Source: a virus (taxonomy: Duplodnaviria > Heunggongvirae > Uroviricota > Caudoviricetes). Taken from it: DNA of 8,041 bases. Position numbers and translations under genes: made by a program. Each line of letters begins with the position of its first letter. Position 1 is the first letter of the stretch. The notes under the pieces are model-generated. The model was not told the DNA's origin, did no database searches, and was given only the letters and a program-made list of their open reading frames with translations. Where the stretch lies: the IMG/VR virus record IMGVR_UViG_2737471861_000016. The stretch is one strand, 5' to 3'. Below, piece after piece: positions 1 through 8,041 of this stretch.

Positions 1-149
1 TCCTTTCATGAAAATACGCAATATCAATCATCCAGCGCGTTAAAAGCTACGTAGCTCATCAAGAGTCTAAGCAGAAGTCTTTCCGTGTTAGCCAGAAGTG
101 GAAACAACGTGCAAAGCTTGCCCTTGCTGGTGAACAACGTCTTACAAAG

Positions 150-1151
150 ATGGTTCCCGGATGGATTGACCCCGATACTTTCAAGTGCAATGAACACGCT
201 GAGACTGTAAGACTGATTTTCAAGCTGCTGCTAGATGGTGAAAGTCTGCATAACATCGCCCGTCACCTACAGGCTAATAACATTAGTTCATTCTCACGGC
301 GTAAAGATGCTAATGGTTTTAGCGTTCATTCTGTGCGTACTATCTTAAGGTCAGAGACAACGAGAGGTACACTACCAGCATCACAGCGCAATGACCGCCC
401 CGCTATACCGAACTACTACGAAGCCGCTATAGATGCTGCAACGTTCAATAAGGCTCAAGAGATTCTCGACAAGAATCGTAAAGGCCGCACACCTGCAAGT
501 GATAACCCATTAACGATTAACATCTTCAAAGGTCTGTTTAGGTGTCAGTGTGGGGCTAGTGTCCATCCTACCGGAACAAAGAATAAGTATGCTGGGGTCT
601 ACAGGTGCAATAACCACTTAGACGGTCGCTGTGATGTTCCACCGTTGAAGCGTAAACCGTTTGATAAGTGGATGATTGATAATTTTCTGGGGATGATTGA
701 CGTGGGGAATGATGGAGAAGCAGAGGGGAAGATTGCATCTCTACAGCATGAGGTTGAAATTGTCACAACCAGAATCAAGAAAGCTACCGCCCTACTTCTT
801 GAGATGGATGATATTACAGAGTTGAAAACACAGGTGAAGGAACTGAACCAGAAGCGCACAGAACTACAGACCACGATTGATAGCATGAGGCGTAAAACTT
901 CACTCAGTGATAAGGGATTACCCCAACTTAAAGATATTGACCTTATGACTAAAGAGGGTCGTGTCGAGTGTCAGTTGATTTTGTCCAAGCATCTAAAAGG
1001 GCTTACATTGGGTAAGGATTCGGTAACTGTAACGCTACAGAACGACACTGAAATAACCATACCTACAGACCCGCTACCGCTAAATGATGGAACATCAATC
1101 TTTGAAATTGCTGAGAAAAATCTTTTGAATATTGACACTTTCCAACTGTAG
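150..1151 (+). CDS. Large serine recombinase, C-terminal portion (recombinase domain, zinc ribbon, coiled coil); catalytic domain not present in this ORF
   Basis: Translation matches the serine-recombinase 'recombinase' domain pattern (IDPD...ETVRLIFKLLLDGESLHNIARHL...FSVHSVRTILRSETTRG), followed by a Cys-rich zinc ribbon (FRCQCG...YRCNNHLDGRC) and a long coiled-coil stretch. No Shine-Dalgarno precedes the ATG at 150, and the in-frame upstream codons 12-149 encode a helix that looks like the end of the catalytic domain, so the ATG is probably an internal Met. Confidence 0.8.
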   Translation: MVPGWIDPDTFKCNEHAETVRLIFKLLLDGESLHNIARHLQANNISSFSRRKDANGFSVHSVRTILRSETTRGTLPASQRNDRPAIPNYYEAAIDAATFNKAQEILDKNRKGRTPASDNPLTINIFKGLFRCQCGASVHPTGTKNKYAGVYRCNNHLDGRCDVPPLKRKPFDKWMIDNFLGMIDVGNDGEAEGKIASLQHEVEIVTTRIKKATALLLEMDDITELKTQVKELNQKRTELQTTIDSMRRKTSLSDKGLPQLKDIDLMTKEGRVECQLILSKHLKGLTLGKDSVTVTLQNDTEITIPTDPLPLNDGTSIFEIAEKNLLNIDTFQL

Positions 1152-1182: not shown

Positions 1183-1971
1183 TCAATATCTCTTGTTCGG
1201 ATTCACTGAGTACTTTTTAAGCTTTGAAGCTACTCGACCAGCGTTACTGTTAGCATTGGTGACGTTGGTTTTTTCAGCTTCTGTTAAGTCTGAATAGTCC
1301 AGCTTCCAAGCCTTATTACATTTAATCTGAGCATCGAGAATATCATTTCTGATAGCTGGAGCGTAACCGGATACATCGTTAATACTCATTAGCTCTTTGC
1401 ACGATAGCATAGGCGCGTTATTGCGTTCAGTGGTCACGTTACCTGCATTCTTCTTACTGGTCACACCACCGTCATTTGTAGTAGCAGTCTTTCCAGTTGC
1501 AGCCGAAATATCAGTTTGTCCCACGACAGCTTTAAAGTTAATTTCCTGAAAAGTTAGCTGGATACGAAGACCGTTAGAGATAGTAACATCTTTAGAGGCT
1601 TTAAAGCTCGTAATAATGGAATCATCAATCTTGATACCGTCTTTACAGATAACTGAAATAATTTGCTTCTGGTCTCTCCAGCTCTCAAGAGTGTCAATGA
1701 AGTTTTCTACTAATTGACCCTGACGAGTTAATAATAAGCTCCCTTCATAGCCAACTACAACGACACCACTAATAGTGATTGTTCTGGGTGCTCTTTGCAC
1801 GTTATCTGTAACGGTTTGCCCTGATTGCATGTTCTGTGTAGTTACCTGCATAGGACTATCAAATTCCATGTTCTCAGTTGCTGATAAGGTTAAGAAGGCA
1901 TCTACATTATCTCTTAAGTGGAAATAGATGCCGTCTTTGCCACTGTAGCGGATTTGATTGCTAAAAATCAT
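1183..1971 (-). CDS. Hypothetical protein (262 aa) immediately downstream of the tape measure gene; possible tail component by position only
   Basis: ORF with an internal ATG at 1971-1969 preceded by AAGGAG at 6-nt spacing (minus strand AAAGGAGAATTTAATG). The track's upstream TTG at 1992 lacks an RBS. No motif recognised. Confidence 0.6.
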
Positions 1972-1988
1972 TAAATTCTCCTTTGATT

Positions 1989-2032
1989 TCAAAGGCTTAG
2001 TGTATTTTAATCATTTTTAACCAAGCCTTTGA
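1989..2032. promoter_or_regulatory. 10-bp perfect inverted repeat (TCAAAGGCTT / AAGCCTTTGA) with 24-bp spacer, just upstream of the RBS of the 262-aa gene
   Basis: Arms at 1989-1998 and 2023-2032 are exact reverse complements. No T tract follows on either strand, so this looks like an operator or RNA structure rather than a terminator. Confidence 0.45.
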
Positions 2033-2127
2033 TATATAAGTACTTTCTCTGTTAAGCGTGAGCTACGTAAATTCTATTTTTCAGTGCGGGTATTAACTTT
2101 GCTTTATTCACGTAGAACACCGTTAAA

Positions 2128-4308
2128 TCAATCATCTTCTGGGAATGATGAACTCAATAACGTAGCCTCTGCATATTGGTCATACAGACTGCTGTTAAAT
2201 GTCATAAAGCTGGTTTCATCTGGTTTAATAGCAACTTCACCACCAAGTGAAACTTTCACAGGCTCCTGAATACGTTTACTCAAAGCAGAGATTTCATCCC
2301 TCAGACTTTGAATATCTGCACTCGTTAATGCTGAATCTTGCTTAATATTGTTTAATTCTGGATGATTGAATCTTGCAATATTCATTGTGGCATTGTTAAA
2401 CAATTCACCCATTGAACTAAAAATTTTACTCCACCCCTCATTAATCATATTCGGTTTATTAGGGTCACCAGAATACACAGGATTAAAGTCACTACCCACA
2501 CCTACCCCAGATGGATGCATATTAGCGTTTTTGACTACTTCCTGATTCATAAAATCCAGTGCTTTCTTCAATGCATATAAACCAAGAGTGACACCTCTGA
2601 TTTGTGGAATCATTGAAGCTAATGCTAACGCTGTTTCATAACCGTCATCAGCATAACCAATTGCAAGAGCACTACCTACACCACCAGCTACACCTTTCAG
2701 TTTTCCACCACCTTTACCAGTAGCTACCTGACCAGCCACCTGATTAGCTCTTGTACCTAACGTTGTGATTGCTCTTGTCAGGTTCATAACCCCTGTAGTA
2801 GCACTGAATAGTGTCTTTGCAGATAACGCTATAGCAAGACCTTTGACGAAGTTGATAAAACCATCACCGACTTCATCAAGTAGTTTTCGTTTAGTGTCAT
2901 CAAGGCTGTAATAGAACTTCTTAGTCTGTAAAATCCAGCCTTCAAGGTGATTGTTAAAGATACGGATGTCATCTACACCAGCTTTAAGCATGTCGATAAG
3001 TCCACCGATAGCATCACCAGCGATAGAAGAACTCATCCCCATTTCACTAAGCAAGCTACTCATGCTGGATAAGAAGCCATTTAGCTCATCCTGTGAACCT
3101 GAGAAGATTTTCACCATCGTATCATCCCAGTTGTTTGCTAACTTACCTAAAGCTGTCTGTGTGCTCTTAGCGACTTCAGCCCAGCCACCCGCTTTATCAA
3201 TCATCAAGCCCATCTGTTTAGCGACTTTAGGGAGAGTATCAGCGGAAAGCACCTTCCCGTCTTTCATCGCTTTATCAAGCTCTGTAGCAGTCATACCCAA
3301 TGCTTCAGCGAATAGCTTAAATGCACCAGCCATACGGTCACCTAACTGACCACGAAGCTCTTCAGCCTGAATCTTGCCCTTAGAAGCCATCTGCTCAAAA
3401 GCTTTCAAAATGCCGTTTAGCTCATCGTTAGAAAGCCCCATTAAGCGACTCATAGCTGTTGCATTACCAAATAGTTGTTGTGTCTCATCCTGTGACATAG
3501 AACCCTGAGCACCTGCTGCAAACTTAGCGTAGCTTGATAGCCCTTCAGAGATATTAAGACCTGTCTTGTCTGCTAAATTTCGAATAAATACCTCAGCTTC
3601 AGATGCTTTATCACCAAGTACAAACTTAGCGGCTCTCTGTGCGGAATCTCGTTTAAGACCTGCATTCATGATGGCCTTGTAAGCGTTAAGAGCACCCATC
3701 ACAGAGTAAAATGCACCAGATAATTTAATCGCATTGCTTGCAAGATTATTAAATGCGTCGCTTGTATTGTTAATGCTGGTGGTCTTTGTCTGTGACCTGA
3801 GTTTATTCAACGTTTCACGAAGAGATTGATTTAATTTTGCAAGTTCAGCGTTAAACTTTTCACTTCCAATATTACCAGCCTTACCGCTTAAGCTGTAATA
3901 CTGTGCTTTAAACATTTTAGCCATCAGCGGATTAATATCACCAAGCTTAGACATATTCACGCTATGTGCCGCTGTGATTGCTCTGTTGCCGCTAATTCGT
4001 GGCTGTCTTGATTGTTTTGGAGGATTAACAGTGTCATTAAATCTGGTGGCAAACTGAAATACTTTTGTGTTTCTTGCTCTCTGTTCAATCTTGTCAAAGG
4101 TCTTATTAAACTTCCTTTCAAGTTGCCCTAAAGAACTTGTCAGATTGCTGTCAAGTTGCTTGGTATCGACCTTAAACGCTCTATTCAAATTACGTTCAAT
4201 TCTTTGTGCTGACTGCAAAGCTGCCTTTTCAACTCTTTGCAAGCCCTTAATAACGTTCTCGCTGAAGCCTAGCTCAACGATAAAACTATCAACTGTGAAT
4301 TTGCTCAT
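2128..4308 (-). CDS. Phage tail tape measure protein (726 aa)
   Basis: Contains the tape-measure signature KGKIQAEELRGQLGDRMAGAFKLFAEALGMTATELDKAMKDGKVLSADTLPKVAKQM, which resembles the lambda gpH segment ELNKALKDGKILQADYNTLM. It also has a Gly-rich hydrophobic region (GKGGGKLKGVAGGVGSALAIGY) and a long helical N-terminus. RBS AGAGGTGAAAC precedes the ATG. Confidence 0.85.
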   Translation of the reverse strand: MSKFTVDSFIVELGFSENVIKGLQRVEKAALQSAQRIERNLNRAFKVDTKQLDSNLTSSLGQLERKFNKTFDKIEQRARNTKVFQFATRFNDTVNPPKQSRQPRISGNRAITAAHSVNMSKLGDINPLMAKMFKAQYYSLSGKAGNIGSEKFNAELAKLNQSLRETLNKLRSQTKTTSINNTSDAFNNLASNAIKLSGAFYSVMGALNAYKAIMNAGLKRDSAQRAAKFVLGDKASEAEVFIRNLADKTGLNISEGLSSYAKFAAGAQGSMSQDETQQLFGNATAMSRLMGLSNDELNGILKAFEQMASKGKIQAEELRGQLGDRMAGAFKLFAEALGMTATELDKAMKDGKVLSADTLPKVAKQMGLMIDKAGGWAEVAKSTQTALGKLANNWDDTMVKIFSGSQDELNGFLSSMSSLLSEMGMSSSIAGDAIGGLIDMLKAGVDDIRIFNNHLEGWILQTKKFYYSLDDTKRKLLDEVGDGFINFVKGLAIALSAKTLFSATTGVMNLTRAITTLGTRANQVAGQVATGKGGGKLKGVAGGVGSALAIGYADDGYETALALASMIPQIRGVTLGLYALKKALDFMNQEVVKNANMHPSGVGVGSDFNPVYSGDPNKPNMINEGWSKIFSSMGELFNNATMNIARFNHPELNNIKQDSALTSADIQSLRDEISALSKRIQEPVKVSLGGEVAIKPDETSFMTFNSSLYDQYAEATLLSSSFPEDD

Positions 4309-5577: not shown

Positions 5578-5616
5578 GAAAACTCTTAAAGAAACGCCCT
5601 AACTCATGATTAGGGC
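5578..5616 (-). terminator. Intrinsic terminator or attenuator candidate inside the long leader
   Basis: Minus-strand transcript: GCCCTAA (5616-5610), loop TCATGAG, TTAGGGC (5602-5596), followed by GTTTCTTTAAGAGTTTTC. The plus-strand orientation has no U tract. Confidence 0.45.
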
Positions 5617-5763
5617 AAAGCTGTAAGGGTTCAATAATGAATGATTAAGCACTTTTTGAGATGACCTCTCAGACTAAACTGAAAGGCCATGACGAAAAGC
5701 ATTGCACCTTTCCAATCAGAATATAGTTATCATCGATGTAGAGACGATTAATAGTTTAATTCA

Positions 5764-5780
5764 GGAAGAGTTGCTCTTCC
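5764..5780. promoter_or_regulatory. Perfect 7-bp stem, 3-nt loop hairpin (GGAAGAG ttg CTCTTCC)
   Basis: Exact inverted repeat at 5764-5770 and 5774-5780. It lies just downstream (minus-strand sense) of the candidate promoter at 5789-5817. No U tract follows, so it is a 5' stem-loop or protein-binding site rather than a terminator. Confidence 0.4.
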
Positions 5781-5788
5781 CTATTACC

Positions 5789-5842
5789 ATCATCTCATGC
5801 TTAAGATTATTTGTCAACAGCTTTTTAACAGATTGGTAACAT
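5789..5842 (-). promoter_or_regulatory. Candidate minus-strand promoter and operator: TTGACA -35 with weak -10, plus three phased (C/T)AACA(G/T) repeats
   Basis: Minus-strand TTGACA (plus 5812-5817), 17-bp spacer, GATGAT (plus 5789-5794). The plus strand carries CAACAG 5815-5820, TAACAG 5826-5831 and TAACAT 5837-5842 at exact 11-bp spacing. The core TTGTCAACA is shared with the 7197-7205 promoter region. Confidence 0.4.
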
Positions 5843-6242: not shown

Positions 6243-6412
6243 TTCTTAAAATCTCCTTTTTCACCAGACCTCCTCAATCGCTCTGTAACGAGCTAAACAG
6301 TCTTTTTCAGGGGTAGCCTGTAGGGGTGTACCACATACCCTAAAATAAGATAGTTTTTTGCGTTAGAATGCGATTGAGAGCGTCTGAGAGTGGGTAAACC
6401 CGTTTTTTGCCT

Positions 6413-6622
6413 TTAGTCTGAGACTATTAACCCCATCTCACTATGAAATTGACTAAACCAGCTTTTTGTTACTGAGGTTTTTAGTGTGAAAGATGGGGAT
6501 TGCATAATCAGATAGATGCCATCATTATCAATGTCACCCCATCCATTATGTACATCAATTAGATTTCGAAAATATTTAAAGGCTTTGTCTGTTTTAAGTT
6601 TGAGGGTGAATACTTTCTTCAT
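6413..6622 (-). CDS. Hypothetical protein (69 aa), translationally coupled to the upstream gene
   Basis: ATG at 6622-6620 overlaps the TGA of the upstream gene (ATGA overlap) and is preceded by GGGGGAAAGA. The track's TTG at 6634 is an unlikely start. Confidence 0.55.
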   Translation of the reverse strand: MKKVFTLKLKTDKAFKYFRNLIDVHNGWGDIDNDGIYLIMQSPSFTLKTSVTKSWFSQFHSEMGLIVSD

Positions 6623-6849
6623 TCTTTCCCCCAATTCTTAATGAGTTCACAGGCCCGTTTAAATTGAGTCGGGTCACTATAATCAAGCTCGATATCCAGT
6701 GACTTTAATTCATAGCGTAACTGCTCAATTTGATGTGGCTTTAGTCTTTTCTTGTTACGGTCAAGCGTAACATCTTCATATTCTTTTGAGCGGGTATCTT
6801 GCCTGATTAGATGTGATGCCAGTTTATAAAATTTGTACCTATAACACAT
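6619..6849 (-). CDS. Hypothetical basic protein (76 aa), translationally coupled to the RHH-like gene
   Basis: ATG at 6849-6847 overlaps the TAA of the upstream gene (TAATG) and is preceded by GGGGG. No family recognised. Confidence 0.55.
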   Translation of the reverse strand: MCYRYKFYKLASHLIRQDTRSKEYEDVTLDRNKKRLKPHQIEQLRYELKSLDIELDYSDPTQFKRACELIKNWGKE

Positions 6850-7139
6850 TAAACCCCCAGCTTATCCGCCAGTTGATGAACCTTAGCGCTTAACACCTGA
6901 ATCATTGAGCAACCTGTTACAGCGGACTGTGCTTTGAGTAGTTCCAGTTGGCCCGTTGTGATTCTGATGGCCTTAGAACCCTCTGCAACGCCCTTAACGT
7001 TATCAAAAGGGGTAAGGGCTACCGACTCTTTTAAAAGCTCTCCAACAAGCGCCGTGTGCTTCATATCGGGATATTTGGTTTTGATTGCTGCCAGTCGTTC
7101 AAATGCCTCTGGCAAAAGGCGCGTAACTGTGTGAGTCAT
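6849..7139 (-). CDS. Putative ribbon-helix-helix (CopG/Arc-like) DNA-binding regulator, possibly two tandem RHH-like units (96 aa)
   Basis: N-terminus HTVTRLLPEAFERLAAIKTKYPDMKHTALVGELLKESV fits the RHH pattern (beta strand, then LPEEL-type helix, then helix B). A second similar unit follows (KAIRITTGQLELLKAQSAVTGCSMIQVLSAKVHQL). Strong promoter and AAGGAG RBS upstream. Confidence 0.5.
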   Translation of the reverse strand: MTHTVTRLLPEAFERLAAIKTKYPDMKHTALVGELLKESVALTPFDNVKGVAEGSKAIRITTGQLELLKAQSAVTGCSMIQVLSAKVHQLADKLGV

Positions 7140-7174
7140 TGTAAAATCTCCTTAAATCTCTTACTCATACTACA

Positions 7175-7203
7175 ATCTTAACATTTATTTAACATATTGT
7201 CAA
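7175..7203 (-). promoter_or_regulatory. Sigma70-type promoter candidate for the RHH-led operon
   Basis: Minus-strand TTGACA (plus 7198-7203), 17-bp spacer, TAAGAT (plus 7175-7180). AAGGAG RBS sits 8 nt before the ATG at 7139. Confidence 0.6.
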
Positions 7204-7217
7204 CATCTCATTTACAT
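7179..7217. repeat. Four hexamer repeats (T/C)(A/T)ACAT phased at exactly 11 bp across the divergent promoter region (operator candidate)
   Basis: TAACAT 7179-7184, TAACAT 7190-7195, CAACAT 7201-7206, TTACAT 7212-7217. Confidence 0.55.
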
Positions 7218-7225
7218 GTTAATAT
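7197..7225 (+). promoter_or_regulatory. Sigma70-type promoter candidate for the small plus-strand ORF, back-to-back with the minus-strand promoter
   Basis: TTGTCA (7197-7202), 17-bp spacer, TAATAT (7220-7225) with an upstream TG (extended -10). Its -35 overlaps the minus-strand -35 by 5 bp. Confidence 0.5.
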
Positions 7226-7275: not shown

Positions 7276-7461
7276 ATGGGCTTTCTTGAAACAATTGCTG
7301 AATCTCACAGATTCGCAAGCTTAGGTTGCTTTGTGTTTTTGGTGCTTCTGGTGTATCAGCTTTTAAAAATGATTATCGCCAAAAGTACACGATTCAATTT
7401 CAGCATTAAGTTTTTCAAATATGAAATCACAATTACGATTGATGATGGTAAAACAAACTAA
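7276..7461 (+). CDS. Small hydrophobic single-pass membrane peptide candidate (61 aa)
   Basis: ATG at 7276 preceded by AAGGGG at 5-nt spacing and by the plus-strand promoter. Contains one predicted transmembrane segment (LGCFVFLVLLVYQLLKMII). Its stop overlaps the stop of the convergent HNH/AP2-like gene. Confidence 0.4.
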   Translation: MGFLETIAESHRFASLGCFVFLVLLVYQLLKMIIAKSTRFNFSIKFFKYEITITIDDGKTN

Positions 7462-7751
7462 CGTTTTGTGATGATATTGGTGGCTCTCAGATTACCGGGG
7501 TCACCGTCTTTTAATCGTAGCTGGTGGACTGAATCCCAGATATCATAATGATACAGCACTGCAAACCTCAAAGCGTCAATCTTTAAATCTGTCACACCAT
7601 CGTAAAAGAAATAATAATCTCTCCCTTCCTTCTTCGGTCTAATCCGGTAAACTTCCCCGTGAGTATCCTTCATAAGATGACCTTCACGAGAAATGCGGTA
7701 ACGCTTTAACAGGCAATCTTTGTATCTCTTTTCACCGTGATATTCTTTCAT
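7458..7751 (-). CDS. HNH_3/AP2-like domain protein (97 aa); the canonical catalytic His position appears substituted
   Basis: Pattern YRISREGHLMK...ALRFAVLYHY...LRLKDGDPGNLRATNI resembles HNH_3/AP2-type domains (VHRLVAEAF...NHKDGNKTNNRxxNL). ATG at 7751-7749 is preceded by GGAGG at 9 nt and overlaps the upstream TAA (TAATG). The track's GTG at 7757 is too close to the RBS. Confidence 0.4.
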   Translation of the reverse strand: MKEYHGEKRYKDCLLKRYRISREGHLMKDTHGEVYRIRPKKEGRDYYFFYDGVTDLKIDALRFAVLYHYDIWDSVHQLRLKDGDPGNLRATNIITKR

Positions 7752-8041
7752 TAGCACATACCTCCACCAGCAAAATACATCTTCGGTTTAATTTTTTGCT
7801 TCTTGTCATCCTGAGTTTGTTTCTTTTTCGGTGTGAAAGAAAAGTCATCATCGTCACTGTCATCGAATGGGTCTAAACCCGATACTTTGTTCTTTTGTCT
7901 TGCAAGCTCGAATCTCTTTTTCTTCTCTACCCTCTTAATGGCTTTTTCACGTTCTGACTCTTCATCCTCTTCATCATCATCGAAGGGGTCCATCTCATCA
8001 TCAGTGGCGGGGCACTGTGTGCTGATGAATCCCCTAATGAT
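7751..8041 (-). CDS. Acidic/basic low-complexity protein with two DPFDD(D/S) repeats; 5' end probably outside the window
   Basis: The reading frame stays open to the window edge (...TDDEMDPFDDDEEDEESEREK...GLDPFDDSDDDDFSF...KKQKIKPKMYFAGGGMC). There is no convincing RBS before the ATG at 7993. It is translationally coupled to the downstream HNH/AP2-like gene. Confidence 0.5.
   Translation of the reverse strand: MIRGFISTQCPATDDEMDPFDDDEEDEESEREKAIKRVEKKKRFELARQKNKVSGLDPFDDSDDDDFSFTPKKKQTQDDKKQKIKPKMYFAGGGMC

What the first reader, a model, noticed from the sequence alone, without database searches (positions are those of the whole stretch)
6413..7139. Compact translationally coupled three-gene cassette led by a tandem RHH-like regulator
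The RHH-like gene (96 aa), a basic 76-aa gene and a 69-aa gene are linked by TAATG and ATGA overlaps under one strong promoter. This resembles RHH-antitoxin/toxin modules or autoregulated small-effector cassettes (anti-defence or immunity-like), but neither downstream protein matches a toxin family I recognise. The function is unassigned and could be new.
Basis: inference. Interest (0 to 1): 0.6.

Follow-up and report, generated by a model that had tools for sequence, protein, structure and literature searches.

The report
Tandem-RHH switch with swappable small genes
Three tightly coupled small genes on the minus strand are real; the first encodes a new single-chain double ribbon-helix-helix DNA-binding protein that probably shuts off its own promoter, and the other two are orphan proteins filling a swappable slot in an apparently undescribed 11-kb E. 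coli island carrying tail genes from Felix O1-like phages.

Summary
The genes are 96 aa (7139..6849), 76 aa (6849..6619) and 69 aa (6622..6413). They are joined by TAATG and ATGA overlaps and sit behind a near-consensus promoter.

The 96-aa protein models as β-α-α twice, at low confidence. Its best structural matches are the single-chain tandem RHH proteins TraY, DndE, single-chain Arc and AvtR. No Pfam or PDB sequence match exists.

Three ATGTT(A/G)A repeats at 11-bp spacing cover its promoter, and an inverted copy covers the −10 of a divergent promoter. A 33%-identical homologue in sister islands keeps both β-strands and the same repeats. I infer an autorepressor/switch.

The 69-aa gene is under strong purifying selection (pN/pS 0.06). 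The 76-aa gene is less constrained. Each has one distant homologue at the same position in sister islands.

The slot after the RHH gene holds alternative alleles: 76+69, 128 aa, 141 aa, or 71 aa+HNH. These alleles recombine freely between RHH types, no toxin family matches, and the RHH protein has no neutralising tail. A toxin-antitoxin reading is therefore unlikely.

The host element is an ~11-kb serine-recombinase island whose tape-measure and Dit-like proteins resemble those of Felix O1-like phages. The function of the two small proteins remains inferred.

The parts
7175..7203 (-). Predicted sigma-70 promoter of the cassette: -35 TTGACA (7203..7198), 17-nt spacer, TG-extended -10 TAAGAT (7180..7175)
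   Evidence: the sequence is unchanged in the window-like variants, but in L014 the -35 reads TTTACA and in L014 and L015 the -10 region differs
7178..7206 (-). Three direct ATGTT(A/G)A repeats with 11-bp spacing (7206..7200, 7195..7189, 7184..7178) overlapping the -35, spacer and -10: candidate operator of the 96-aa protein
   Evidence: 2 overlapping matches against 0.01 expected from shuffles; found only at this promoter in each ~20-kb island locus
7216..7222 (+). Fourth, inverted copy of the repeat (ATGTTAA on the + strand), overlapping the -10 of the divergent promoter
7197..7225 (+). Divergent promoter-like site TTGTCA-17-TAATAT; its -35 overlaps the -35 of the cassette promoter back to back
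7148..7153 (-). Shine-Dalgarno AAGGAG, 8 nt upstream of the ATG of the 96-aa gene
   Evidence: sequence read directly
6849..7139 (-). 96-aa single-chain tandem ribbon-helix-helix protein: β3-8, α10-22, α28-37, linker, β56-61, α62-75, α79-94; G76-C77-S78 turn in repeat 2
   Evidence: pN/pS 0.28
6619..6849 (-). 76-aa basic protein; its start overlaps the upstream stop (TAATG); homologous to the N-terminal domain of the 128- and 141-aa alleles found in sister islands
6413..6622 (-). 69-aa protein; its start overlaps the upstream stop (ATGA), preceded by GGGGGAAAGA; predicted β-α-β-β-α-β order; 35% identical to the 71-aa protein of type-2 islands
7276..7461 (+). Divergently transcribed 61-aa protein with one hydrophobic segment; probably the second output of the same control region
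   Evidence: annotated as WP_000506009.1 in some genomes; a diverged 68-aa counterpart exists in L024
6243..6412 (-). Spacer between the cassette and the next gene (107 aa). No intrinsic terminator was detected, so read-through is likely. It folds into a long hairpin
   Evidence: (z = -3.2)

Best explanation
The cassette is the control module of a mobile ~11-kb E. coli island. The island is bounded by a large serine recombinase and a small resolvase, and it carries tape-measure and Dit-like tail genes related to those of Felix O1-like phages. The 96-aa protein is a single-chain pseudo-dimeric ribbon-helix-helix DNA-binding protein. I infer that each molecule reads one ATGTT(A/G)A repeat. Three direct repeats one helical turn apart cover the -35, spacer and -10 of its own promoter, and an inverted fourth copy covers the -10 of the back-to-back promoter of a 61-aa membrane-protein gene. 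Bound protein would therefore shut both promoters, giving negative autoregulation and a switch. The geometry resembles Arc at the overlapping Pant/Pmnt promoters of phage P22. The 76-aa and 69-aa genes are translated in step with the regulator through the TAATG and ATGA overlaps. Transcription probably reads on into the 107-aa gene. The two small proteins are not toxins. They are one allele of an always-occupied, recombining slot; the other alleles are a 128-aa gene, a 141-aa gene, and a 71-aa gene with an HNH gene. My commitment, as inference only, is that they act as allele-specific regulatory or adaptor proteins that link the switch to the island's induction or to its interplay with an infecting phage. 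Shown: the gene structure, selection on the ORFs, the fold class (at modest model confidence), repeat-promoter overlap, co-conservation of repeats and β-strands, and modular exchange. Inferred: DNA binding, repression, and any role for p76 and p69.
Against: Both structure models have low confidence (pLDDT 60.8 and 54.6) and come from shallow alignments. No RHH profile matches by sequence, and the two halves of the 96-aa protein show no detectable similarity to each other. DNA binding and repression are untested. In type-2 islands the RHH homologue is the second gene of its operon, and the repeats lie upstream of that operon's -35, so 'autorepressor' may not hold for the whole family. TraY and DndE, the best structural matches, act in DNA processing as well as, or instead of, transcription. 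For p76 the selection signal is weak. The most abundant 76-aa-like cluster in the protein database (84 aa, 320 member sequences) has the same altered C-terminus as the 1-nt-deletion variant seen in one genome (L022), which removes the ATGA overlap. Nothing indicates what p76 or p69 bind.
Confidence: 0.55

Rival explanations
1. Type II toxin-antitoxin module: the RHH protein is an autoregulating antitoxin, and the 76-aa and/or 69-aa protein is a new toxin that it neutralises by direct binding.
For: An RHH-first, translationally coupled, small-gene operon with an operator over its own promoter is the classic TA layout. The cassette sits on a mobile element.
Against: All 96 residues are taken up by the two RHH repeats, leaving no C-terminal toxin-binding extension. 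Neither small protein hits any Pfam, PHROG or PADLOC family. Nearly identical downstream genes are paired with RHH proteins only 33% identical: the 128-aa gene follows both the 96-type and the 92-type, and 76+69 follows either the 96-type RHH gene or an HNH gene. Other alleles of the same slot carry a resolvase-like HTH or an HNH endonuclease rather than toxin folds. In type-2 islands the RHH gene is internal to a longer operon.
Confidence: 0.07
2. The two small genes are optional accessory cargo ('morons'), for example anti-defence or phage-interference effectors. They sit in a recombination hot spot and merely ride on the RHH-controlled promoter, with no role in the island's own regulation.
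For: The alleles are exchanged as blocks at a conserved junction. They are far more uniform (96.7-100% DNA identity) than the neighbouring RHH gene (72-100%), which suggests recent spread. HNH endonuclease genes, which are typical selfish boundary elements, occupy the same slot. The proteins are near-orphans among 5.8 billion sequences. No phage homologues were found.
Against: No island in my small sample of configurations had an empty slot. The alleles fall into only two protein families (p76/128/141 and p69/71) rather than unrelated cargo, as expected for a needed function under diversification. The 128- and 141-aa alleles carry a DNA-binding-type HTH.
Confidence: 0.25
3. The 96-aa protein is a DNA-processing accessory factor in the manner of TraY or DndE. 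It would bend or mark DNA for replication, recombination or packaging of the island, and is not primarily a transcription factor.
For: The best structural matches are TraY (relaxosome) and DndE. The island encodes two serine recombinases and a putative replication initiator.
Against: The only repeat cluster in ~20 kb of each island lies exactly on the promoter hexamers. None was found near the island ends or the recombinase genes within the loci held. TraY itself also regulates its own promoter (my own knowledge).
Confidence: 0.1
4. The 76-aa ORF is not a functional gene; only the 96-aa and 69-aa proteins are made.
For: pN/pS is 0.78 over the whole ORF. The changes cluster at codons 2-3 and 75. 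A common frameshift variant alters its C-terminus. PGAP usually does not call it.
Against: The ORF is open in all variants. pN/pS falls to 0.24 outside the junction codons. It aligns along its whole length with the N-terminal domain of the 128- and 141-aa proteins, with 15 invariant positions. Its start is coupled by TAATG behind both RHH and HNH genes.
Confidence: 0.08

Closest known systems
TraY of the F plasmid (single-chain tandem RHH; relaxosome accessory protein and regulator of the PY promoter)
   Different: Only 12% identity and no sequence-profile match. No relaxase or oriT context. The candidate sites lie on promoter hexamers rather than at a nick site.
Arc/Mnt of the phage P22 immI region (an RHH-led, autoregulated operon with overlapping divergent promoters)
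   Same: The RHH gene comes first in an operon. The operator lies between and over two back-to-back promoters, so one protein can shut both. The downstream gene is co-expressed with the regulator (knowledge of P22 is my own).
   Different: Arc is a 53-aa chain that dimerises, whereas this protein is a fused double repeat. There is no Ant homologue. The candidate operators are 7-bp direct repeats at 11-bp spacing rather than a 21-bp symmetric operator. There is no sequence homology.
AvtR and related tandem-RHH regulators of archaeal filamentous and rod-shaped viruses; the ω repressor of pSM19035 (heptad iterons)
   Different: The hosts are archaeal viruses or Gram-positive plasmids. Identity is 10-20%. 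The ω heptads abut one another, whereas these repeats are one helical turn apart.
RHH-type type II antitoxins (CopG/ParD/MazE/TacA classes)
   Same: An N-terminal RHH DNA-binding fold, and a coupled small-gene operon under an autoregulated promoter.
   Different: No neutralisation tail, no recognisable toxin, and partners that swap between RHH types.
Regulatory modules of phage satellites: SaPI Stl/Str, PICI AlpA, P4 regulators, and PLE of Vibrio cholerae
   Same: A small integrative island with its own recombinase, a putative replication protein and a divergent-promoter control region next to genes derived from a phage's morphogenesis set. Like PLE, it uses a large serine recombinase, and the related phage is a virulent myovirus (knowledge of PLE is my own).
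   Different: No sequence relation to any of those regulators. Helper dependence, induction and packaging are untested. Carrying only a tape-measure gene and a Dit-like gene is not the gene set of any satellite family described in the papers I could search.

Membership tests
Ribbon-helix-helix (MetJ/Arc/CopG) superfamily, single-chain tandem subclass | β-strand followed by two helices, present twice in one chain | tested here: met
   AF2 secondary structure: E3-8 H10-22 H28-37 ... E56-61 H62-75 H79-94. Model confidence is only moderate (pLDDT 60.8).
Ribbon-helix-helix (MetJ/Arc/CopG) superfamily, single-chain tandem subclass | Overall fold superposes on solved RHH dimers or tandem RHH chains | tested here: met
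Ribbon-helix-helix (MetJ/Arc/CopG) superfamily, single-chain tandem subclass | G-x-S/T/N turn between the two helices | tested here: inconclusive
   Repeat 2 has G76-C77-S/T78, with G and C invariant in 28 homologues. Repeat 1 has P24-D-M-K-H28 instead, so only one repeat is canonical.
Ribbon-helix-helix (MetJ/Arc/CopG) superfamily, single-chain tandem subclass | Match to a curated RHH sequence profile | tested here: not met
   No Pfam, PHROG or PADLOC hit. No PDB sequence hit with a profile. An exhaustive HMMER search of 1.84 billion representatives found only 8 proteins, all apparent island relatives or fragments of them.
Ribbon-helix-helix (MetJ/Arc/CopG) superfamily, single-chain tandem subclass | Sequence-specific DNA binding through the β-ribbon | not testable with these tools
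   Indirect only: both β-strands (HT[VL]TR, IRIT) are invariant across 33%-identical homologues, and the ATGTTAA repeats are kept in both island types.
Type II toxin-antitoxin system with RHH antitoxin | Antitoxin has a toxin-neutralising region besides the DNA-binding domain | tested here: not met
   The two RHH repeats span residues 3-94 of 96.
Type II toxin-antitoxin system with RHH antitoxin | Partner belongs to a toxin family or fold | tested here: not met
   p76 and p69 have no Pfam, PHROG or PADLOC hits. The p69 model gives only generic ferredoxin-like matches. Profile searches against PDB sequences found nothing significant.
Type II toxin-antitoxin system with RHH antitoxin | Cognate pair inherited together | tested here: not met
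   The 96-aa gene is in 127 genomes but the 76+69 pair in only 36. The same downstream alleles occur behind 96-type RHH, 92-type RHH and HNH genes.
Type II toxin-antitoxin system with RHH antitoxin | Toxicity of the partner, rescued by the antitoxin | not testable with these tools
   Needs expression assays.
Phage satellite (PICI / P4-like / PLE-like) regulatory module | Located on a small integrative element with its own recombinase, found at several chromosomal sites | tested here: met
   An ~11-kb element between a small resolvase gene and a large serine recombinase gene, seen at the yciI-tonB, yecE and ymdF/rutG-wrbA sites.
Phage satellite (PICI / P4-like / PLE-like) regulatory module | Carries genes tied to a particular helper phage | tested here: inconclusive
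   The Dit-like protein is ~73% identical to the gene next to the tape-measure gene of Felixounavirus phages. The tape-measure protein matches phage tape-measure PHROG families but was not itself compared with Felixounavirus. Eight other island proteins have no phage hit. Helper dependence is unknown.
Phage satellite (PICI / P4-like / PLE-like) regulatory module | Induction, replication and packaging on helper infection | not testable with these tools
   Needs infection experiments.

The most novel reading that the evidence does not exclude
The cassette is the helper-sensing switch of an undescribed family of E. coli phage satellites, or phage-interference islands, that target virulent Felix O1-like myophages. 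In this reading the tandem-RHH protein keeps the island silent. The swappable p76/p69, 128-aa, 141-aa and 71-aa alleles are specificity modules that recognise different phage proteins, or counter different phage escapes, to release it. It would be an enterobacterial counterpart of the PLE-ICP1 arms race.
Probability: 0.15. Interest if true: 0.75.

Novelty: new variant of a known kind. Interest (0 to 1): 0.45.

Why it matters
The result adds a bacterial family of naturally fused double-RHH regulators to the few known examples (TraY, AvtR, DndE-like). It comes with a clear, testable operator: 7-bp direct repeats one helical turn apart, which fits the asymmetry of a pseudo-dimer. It also shows two real but largely unannotated small genes in E. 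coli genomes, and a recombining, always-occupied slot behind the regulator. The larger value lies in the context. The module appears to control an ~11-kb serine-recombinase island present in roughly 7-8% of complete E. coli genomes. That island has captured the tape-measure gene and its neighbouring tail gene; the neighbouring (Dit-like) protein is ~73% identical to that of Felix O1-like virulent phages. If the island is a satellite or a tail-assembly interference element, this cassette is the place to look for how it senses infection. Felix O1-like phages are widely used for typing, biocontrol and therapy.

Tried and rejected
- Pfam, PHROG and PADLOC scans of all three proteins and their neighbours gave nothing above noise.
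- Megablast of the region against 50,697 phage records found no match. tblastn of eight concatenated island proteins against phages at E ≤ 0.1 also found none.
- Word-indexed homologue searches returned only close relatives (≥67% identity over full-length matches), from Escherichia, Shigella and Citrobacter where a source names the organism. The exhaustive HMMER profile search added two distant relatives only.
- Profile searches of PDB sequences for the three families found nothing significant. The C-terminal HTH of the 128/141-aa alleles touches γδ resolvase only at E ≈ 1.
The afdb50 fold library was unavailable.
- An Rfam scan of the window found only chance-level hits.
- The 90-bp stretch 6300-6389, which matched hundreds of genomes, looked like a repeat or sRNA. 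It turned out to be island backbone linked to the p69/71-type alleles.
- The long hairpin at 6243-6412 has no support from covariation across island types.
- I first misread a junction variant as a premature stop in p76. Translation showed the ORF is intact as MLPRYKF.
- The two halves of the 96-aa protein show no sequence similarity, so there is no evidence of a recent duplication.
- Five literature searches found no description of this island or cassette. The Tai tail-assembly-interference paper is unrelated.
- IMG/VR hits are mostly provirus calls from isolate genomes and add no evidence of packaging.

Full report
**1. The observation**

Read on the minus strand, the first junction is TAATG, with one shared base. 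The second junction is ATGA, with four shared bases.

AAGGAG lies 8 nt before the first ATG, and GGGGGAAAGA runs up to the third ATG. A promoter-like site lies at 7203..7175: TTGACA, a 17-nt spacer, then TG-extended TAAGAT. The scan as a whole was not enriched over shuffles, so the promoter is a prediction rather than a finding. The 76-aa protein is basic (pI 9.1).

**2. Are these real genes?**

The exact 96-aa protein is listed in 92 blocks of the assembly index. In ten loci from different E. coli assemblies the whole cassette is 99.9-100% identical, although the neighbouring genes differ. I aligned the window with nine further copies, eight of them more distant variants at 93.6-97.7% identity, and classified the substitutions:

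| Gene | Synonymous | Non-synonymous | pN/pS | Binomial P |
|---|---|---|---|---|
| 96 aa | 24 | 20 | 0.28 | 2.5e-5 |
| 69 aa | 8 | 2 | 0.06 | 8e-5 |
| 76 aa, whole ORF | 5 | 16 | 0.78 | not significant |
| 76 aa, without junction codons 2, 3, 75 | 5 | 5 | 0.24 | 0.03 |

All three ORFs stay open in every variant. One variant has a 1-nt deletion that lengthens the 76-aa product to 84 aa and removes the ATGA overlap. The most abundant 76-aa-like cluster in the protein database (320 member sequences) has the same 84-aa form. PGAP annotates the 96-aa gene, leaves the 76-aa gene out in most genomes examined, and in none of the fully listed loci does it call a CDS at the position of the 69-aa gene.

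I conclude that the 96-aa and 69-aa genes are certainly coding. The 76-aa gene very probably is, and section 5 adds support for that.

**3. The 96-aa protein**

No Pfam, PHROG, PADLOC or PDB sequence profile matches it. Its family is narrow:
- 39 clusters in 5.8 billion proteins, from Escherichia, Shigella and Citrobacter where a source names the organism; full-length matches are at least 67% identical.
- Only 8 representatives in an exhaustive HMMER search of 1.84 billion proteins.

Dozens of ordinary RHH domains follow, each matching one half of the model. Foldseek against viral models returns archaeal-virus proteins, several annotated as RHH-domain proteins, with TM 0.6-0.69. Repeat 2 carries the canonical G-x-S/T turn (G76-C77-S78, with G and C invariant). 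Repeat 1 does not. The two halves share no detectable sequence similarity.

**4. A candidate operator**

Read in the gene's direction, the control region is TTAACAT-N9-ATGTTGAcaatATGTTAAataaATGTTAAgatt. It contains three direct ATGTT(A/G)A repeats spaced 11 bp apart:
- the first contains the -35 (TTGACA);
- the third contains the start of the -10 (TAAGAT);
- an inverted copy upstream overlaps the -10 of a back-to-back plus-strand promoter (TTGTCA-17-TAATAT, 7197..7225) that faces a 61-aa gene encoding a protein with one hydrophobic segment.

The two-repeat pattern occurs twice, overlapping, against 0.01 expected from shuffles. In 22 island loci it occurs only at this position.

There is a comparative argument as well. 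Sister ('type-2') islands encode a 92-aa homologue that is only 32-36% identical. Both β-strands, which are the DNA-reading elements of RHH proteins, are invariant across the two types: HT[VL]TR and IRIT. Type-2 islands keep the ATGTTAA repeat in their own control region: two copies 11 bp apart in L017 and L026, and one exact copy next to a one-mismatch copy in L012 and L025. There the repeats form the -35 and spacer of a strong divergent promoter and abut the -35 of the operon that contains the RHH gene.

This co-conservation is the best available evidence that the protein reads these repeats. Binding itself is inferred. In the window's geometry, binding should repress both promoters, so the protein would be a negative autoregulator and a switch. 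A fused pseudo-dimer is asymmetric, which suits direct rather than palindromic repeats.

**5. The two small proteins and the slot they occupy**

Both are near-orphans. The 76-aa protein has nine hits and the 69-aa protein has three, all at least 86% identical. Searching complete E. coli genomes showed why. The 96-aa gene is present in 127 of 5426 genomes, at 72-100% DNA identity. The 76+69 pair is present in only 36, always at 96.7-100% identity. The block upstream of the pair ends at the RHH stop codon.

In other islands the gene that follows the RHH gene differs:
- a 141-aa protein;
- a 128-aa protein;
- a 71-aa protein followed by an HNH endonuclease;
- an HNH endonuclease followed by the same 76+69 pair.

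These are not unrelated cargo. The 71-aa protein is 35% identical to p69 (pairwise E 7e-10). The first ~80 residues of the 128- and 141-aa proteins align with the whole of p76 (33% identity, E 1e-3, 15 invariant positions). Those two proteins then add a resolvase-type helix-turn-helix, supported only by weak Pfam HTH_28/HTH_7 hits.

Allele counts in the 5426 genomes are:

| Allele after the RHH gene | Genomes |
|---|---|
| 76+69 | 36 |
| 141 aa | 57 |
| 128 aa | 126 |
| 71 aa + HNH | 227 |

The alleles assort independently of the RHH type. A 94%-identical 128-aa protein follows the 96-type in E. coli and the 92-type in Citrobacter. The 76+69 pair follows either the 96-type RHH gene or an HNH gene. 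Every junction keeps the TAATG-type overlap.

The p69 model has low confidence (pLDDT 54.6). Its β-α-β-β-α-β order gives only generic ferredoxin-like matches.

**6. The setting**

The cassette lies in an ~11-kb element that occurs at several chromosomal sites: yciI-tonB, within yecE, and the ymdF/rutG-wrbA side. In order, the element carries:
- a small resolvase;
- a Dam methylase;
- a 325-aa HTH protein with a weak DnaD_N-like match;
- a ~97-aa protein;
- the control region and the cassette;
- 107-, 235- and 69-aa proteins;
- a 726-aa tape-measure protein;
- a Dit-like protein;
- a convergent large serine recombinase.

The Dit-like protein is ~73% identical to the gene that follows the tape-measure gene in Felixounavirus, the Felix O1-like virulent myophages. 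The island's tape-measure protein matches phage tape-measure PHROG families, but I did not compare it directly with Felixounavirus. None of eight other island proteins, including the three of the cassette, has any phage match.

No minus-strand terminator separates the cassette from the 107-aa gene, so the cassette probably heads a longer transcript. I found no paper describing this element. It looks like a satellite or a phage-interference island, but nothing here tests that.

**7. Interpretation**

Best-supported (0.55): the cassette is the island's control module. A single-chain RHH repressor sits on ATGTTRA repeats over two back-to-back promoters. Two co-translated small proteins represent one allele of an always-occupied, recombining slot. 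I commit to a regulatory or adaptor role for them in the island's induction or in its dealings with a phage. That role is inference.

Rivals:
- **Optional accessory or anti-defence cargo riding on the promoter (0.25).** Block exchange, neighbouring HNH genes and orphan status favour it. The two-family structure of the slot, and the absence of empty slots in my small sample, weaken it.
- **A TraY/DndE-like DNA-processing role for the RHH protein (0.10).**
- **p76 is not a functional gene (0.08).**
- **A toxin-antitoxin module (0.07).** This is contradicted by the absence of a neutralisation tail, the absence of any toxin family match, and above all by partner swapping between RHH types that are only 33% identical.

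**8. Novelty and score**

An RHH-led autoregulated operon is a known kind of system. The new elements are:
- a bacterial family of fused double-RHH proteins with a clean iteron operator;
- two largely unannotated small-protein families;
- the modular slot;
- the undescribed host island.

I rate the finding 'new variant of a known kind', interest 0.45. The cassette is well defined and testable, but the function of the two small proteins is open, and most of the excitement belongs to the island rather than to the cassette.

Noticed in passing
window 1183-4308 (-), and the whole window as part of an ~11-kb island: The Dit-like protein (269 aa) is ~73% identical to the gene that follows the tape-measure gene in Felixounavirus (Felix O1-like virulent myophages). 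The adjacent 726-aa tape-measure protein matches phage tape-measure PHROG families but was not itself compared with Felixounavirus. Eight other island proteins have no phage homologue. The island sits at three or more chromosomal sites in roughly 390-450 of 5426 complete E. coli genomes, and I found no paper on it. It may be a new satellite or a tail-interference element.
   Followed up: partly
window 1-1151 (+): The large serine recombinase is incomplete here. In the 100%-identical genome (E. coli OkiPb01716) it lacks its N-terminus and abuts an IS21-family ISEc12 element, so this copy of the island is probably immobile.
   Followed up: partly
window 7276-7461 (+): A 61-aa protein with one hydrophobic segment is transcribed divergently from the cassette. 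Its promoter's -10 overlaps the inverted repeat copy. The gene is conserved in type-1 islands, sometimes as a diverged 68-aa form (L024 8687..8893). Its function is unknown.
   Followed up: partly
window 6243-6412 (-): The spacer between the 69-aa and 107-aa genes folds into a ~125-nt extended hairpin (-51.4 kcal/mol, z = -3.2). Its 90-bp core (6300-6389) is about 90% conserved in the sampled islands that carry p69/71-type alleles, but is replaced by unrelated sequence in islands with 128/141-aa alleles. There is no covariation support.
   Followed up: partly
window 5590-5820 (-): The 577-bp gap between the 107-aa and 235-aa genes contains a promoter-like site (TTGACA-17-GATGAT, 5817..5789) and a terminator-like hairpin with a T-tail (5617..5595). 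This could be a ~190-nt small RNA. There is no Rfam match.
   Followed up: no
L012 6550-6822, L017 2601-2888 (sister islands): Small HNH endonuclease genes (90 and 95 aa, 41% identical to each other) sit inside the same slot, coupled by TAATG or ATGA overlaps. This may explain the block exchange of alleles by homing-type recombination.
   Followed up: partly
proteins P0045 and P0048: Natural chimeras exist. One joins the N-terminal 54 residues of p76 to the C-terminus of the 107-aa protein. The other joins a 92-type RHH protein to the C-terminus of p76. Both indicate deletions or recombination at short shared motifs within the module.
   Followed up: no
window 7458-7757 (-): The 99-aa protein upstream of the control region ends in '...LKDGDPGNLRATNI', which to my eye resembles the HNH_3 motif of the slot's HNH proteins. 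BLAST similarity is not significant (E 1.8) and there is no Pfam hit.
   Followed up: no
L004, L007, L013 (yecE site): Where the island sits in yecE, a lambdoid prophage with a tyrosine integrase is sometimes integrated right next to it. From my own knowledge, yecE and wrbA are also known Stx-phage attachment sites.
   Followed up: no
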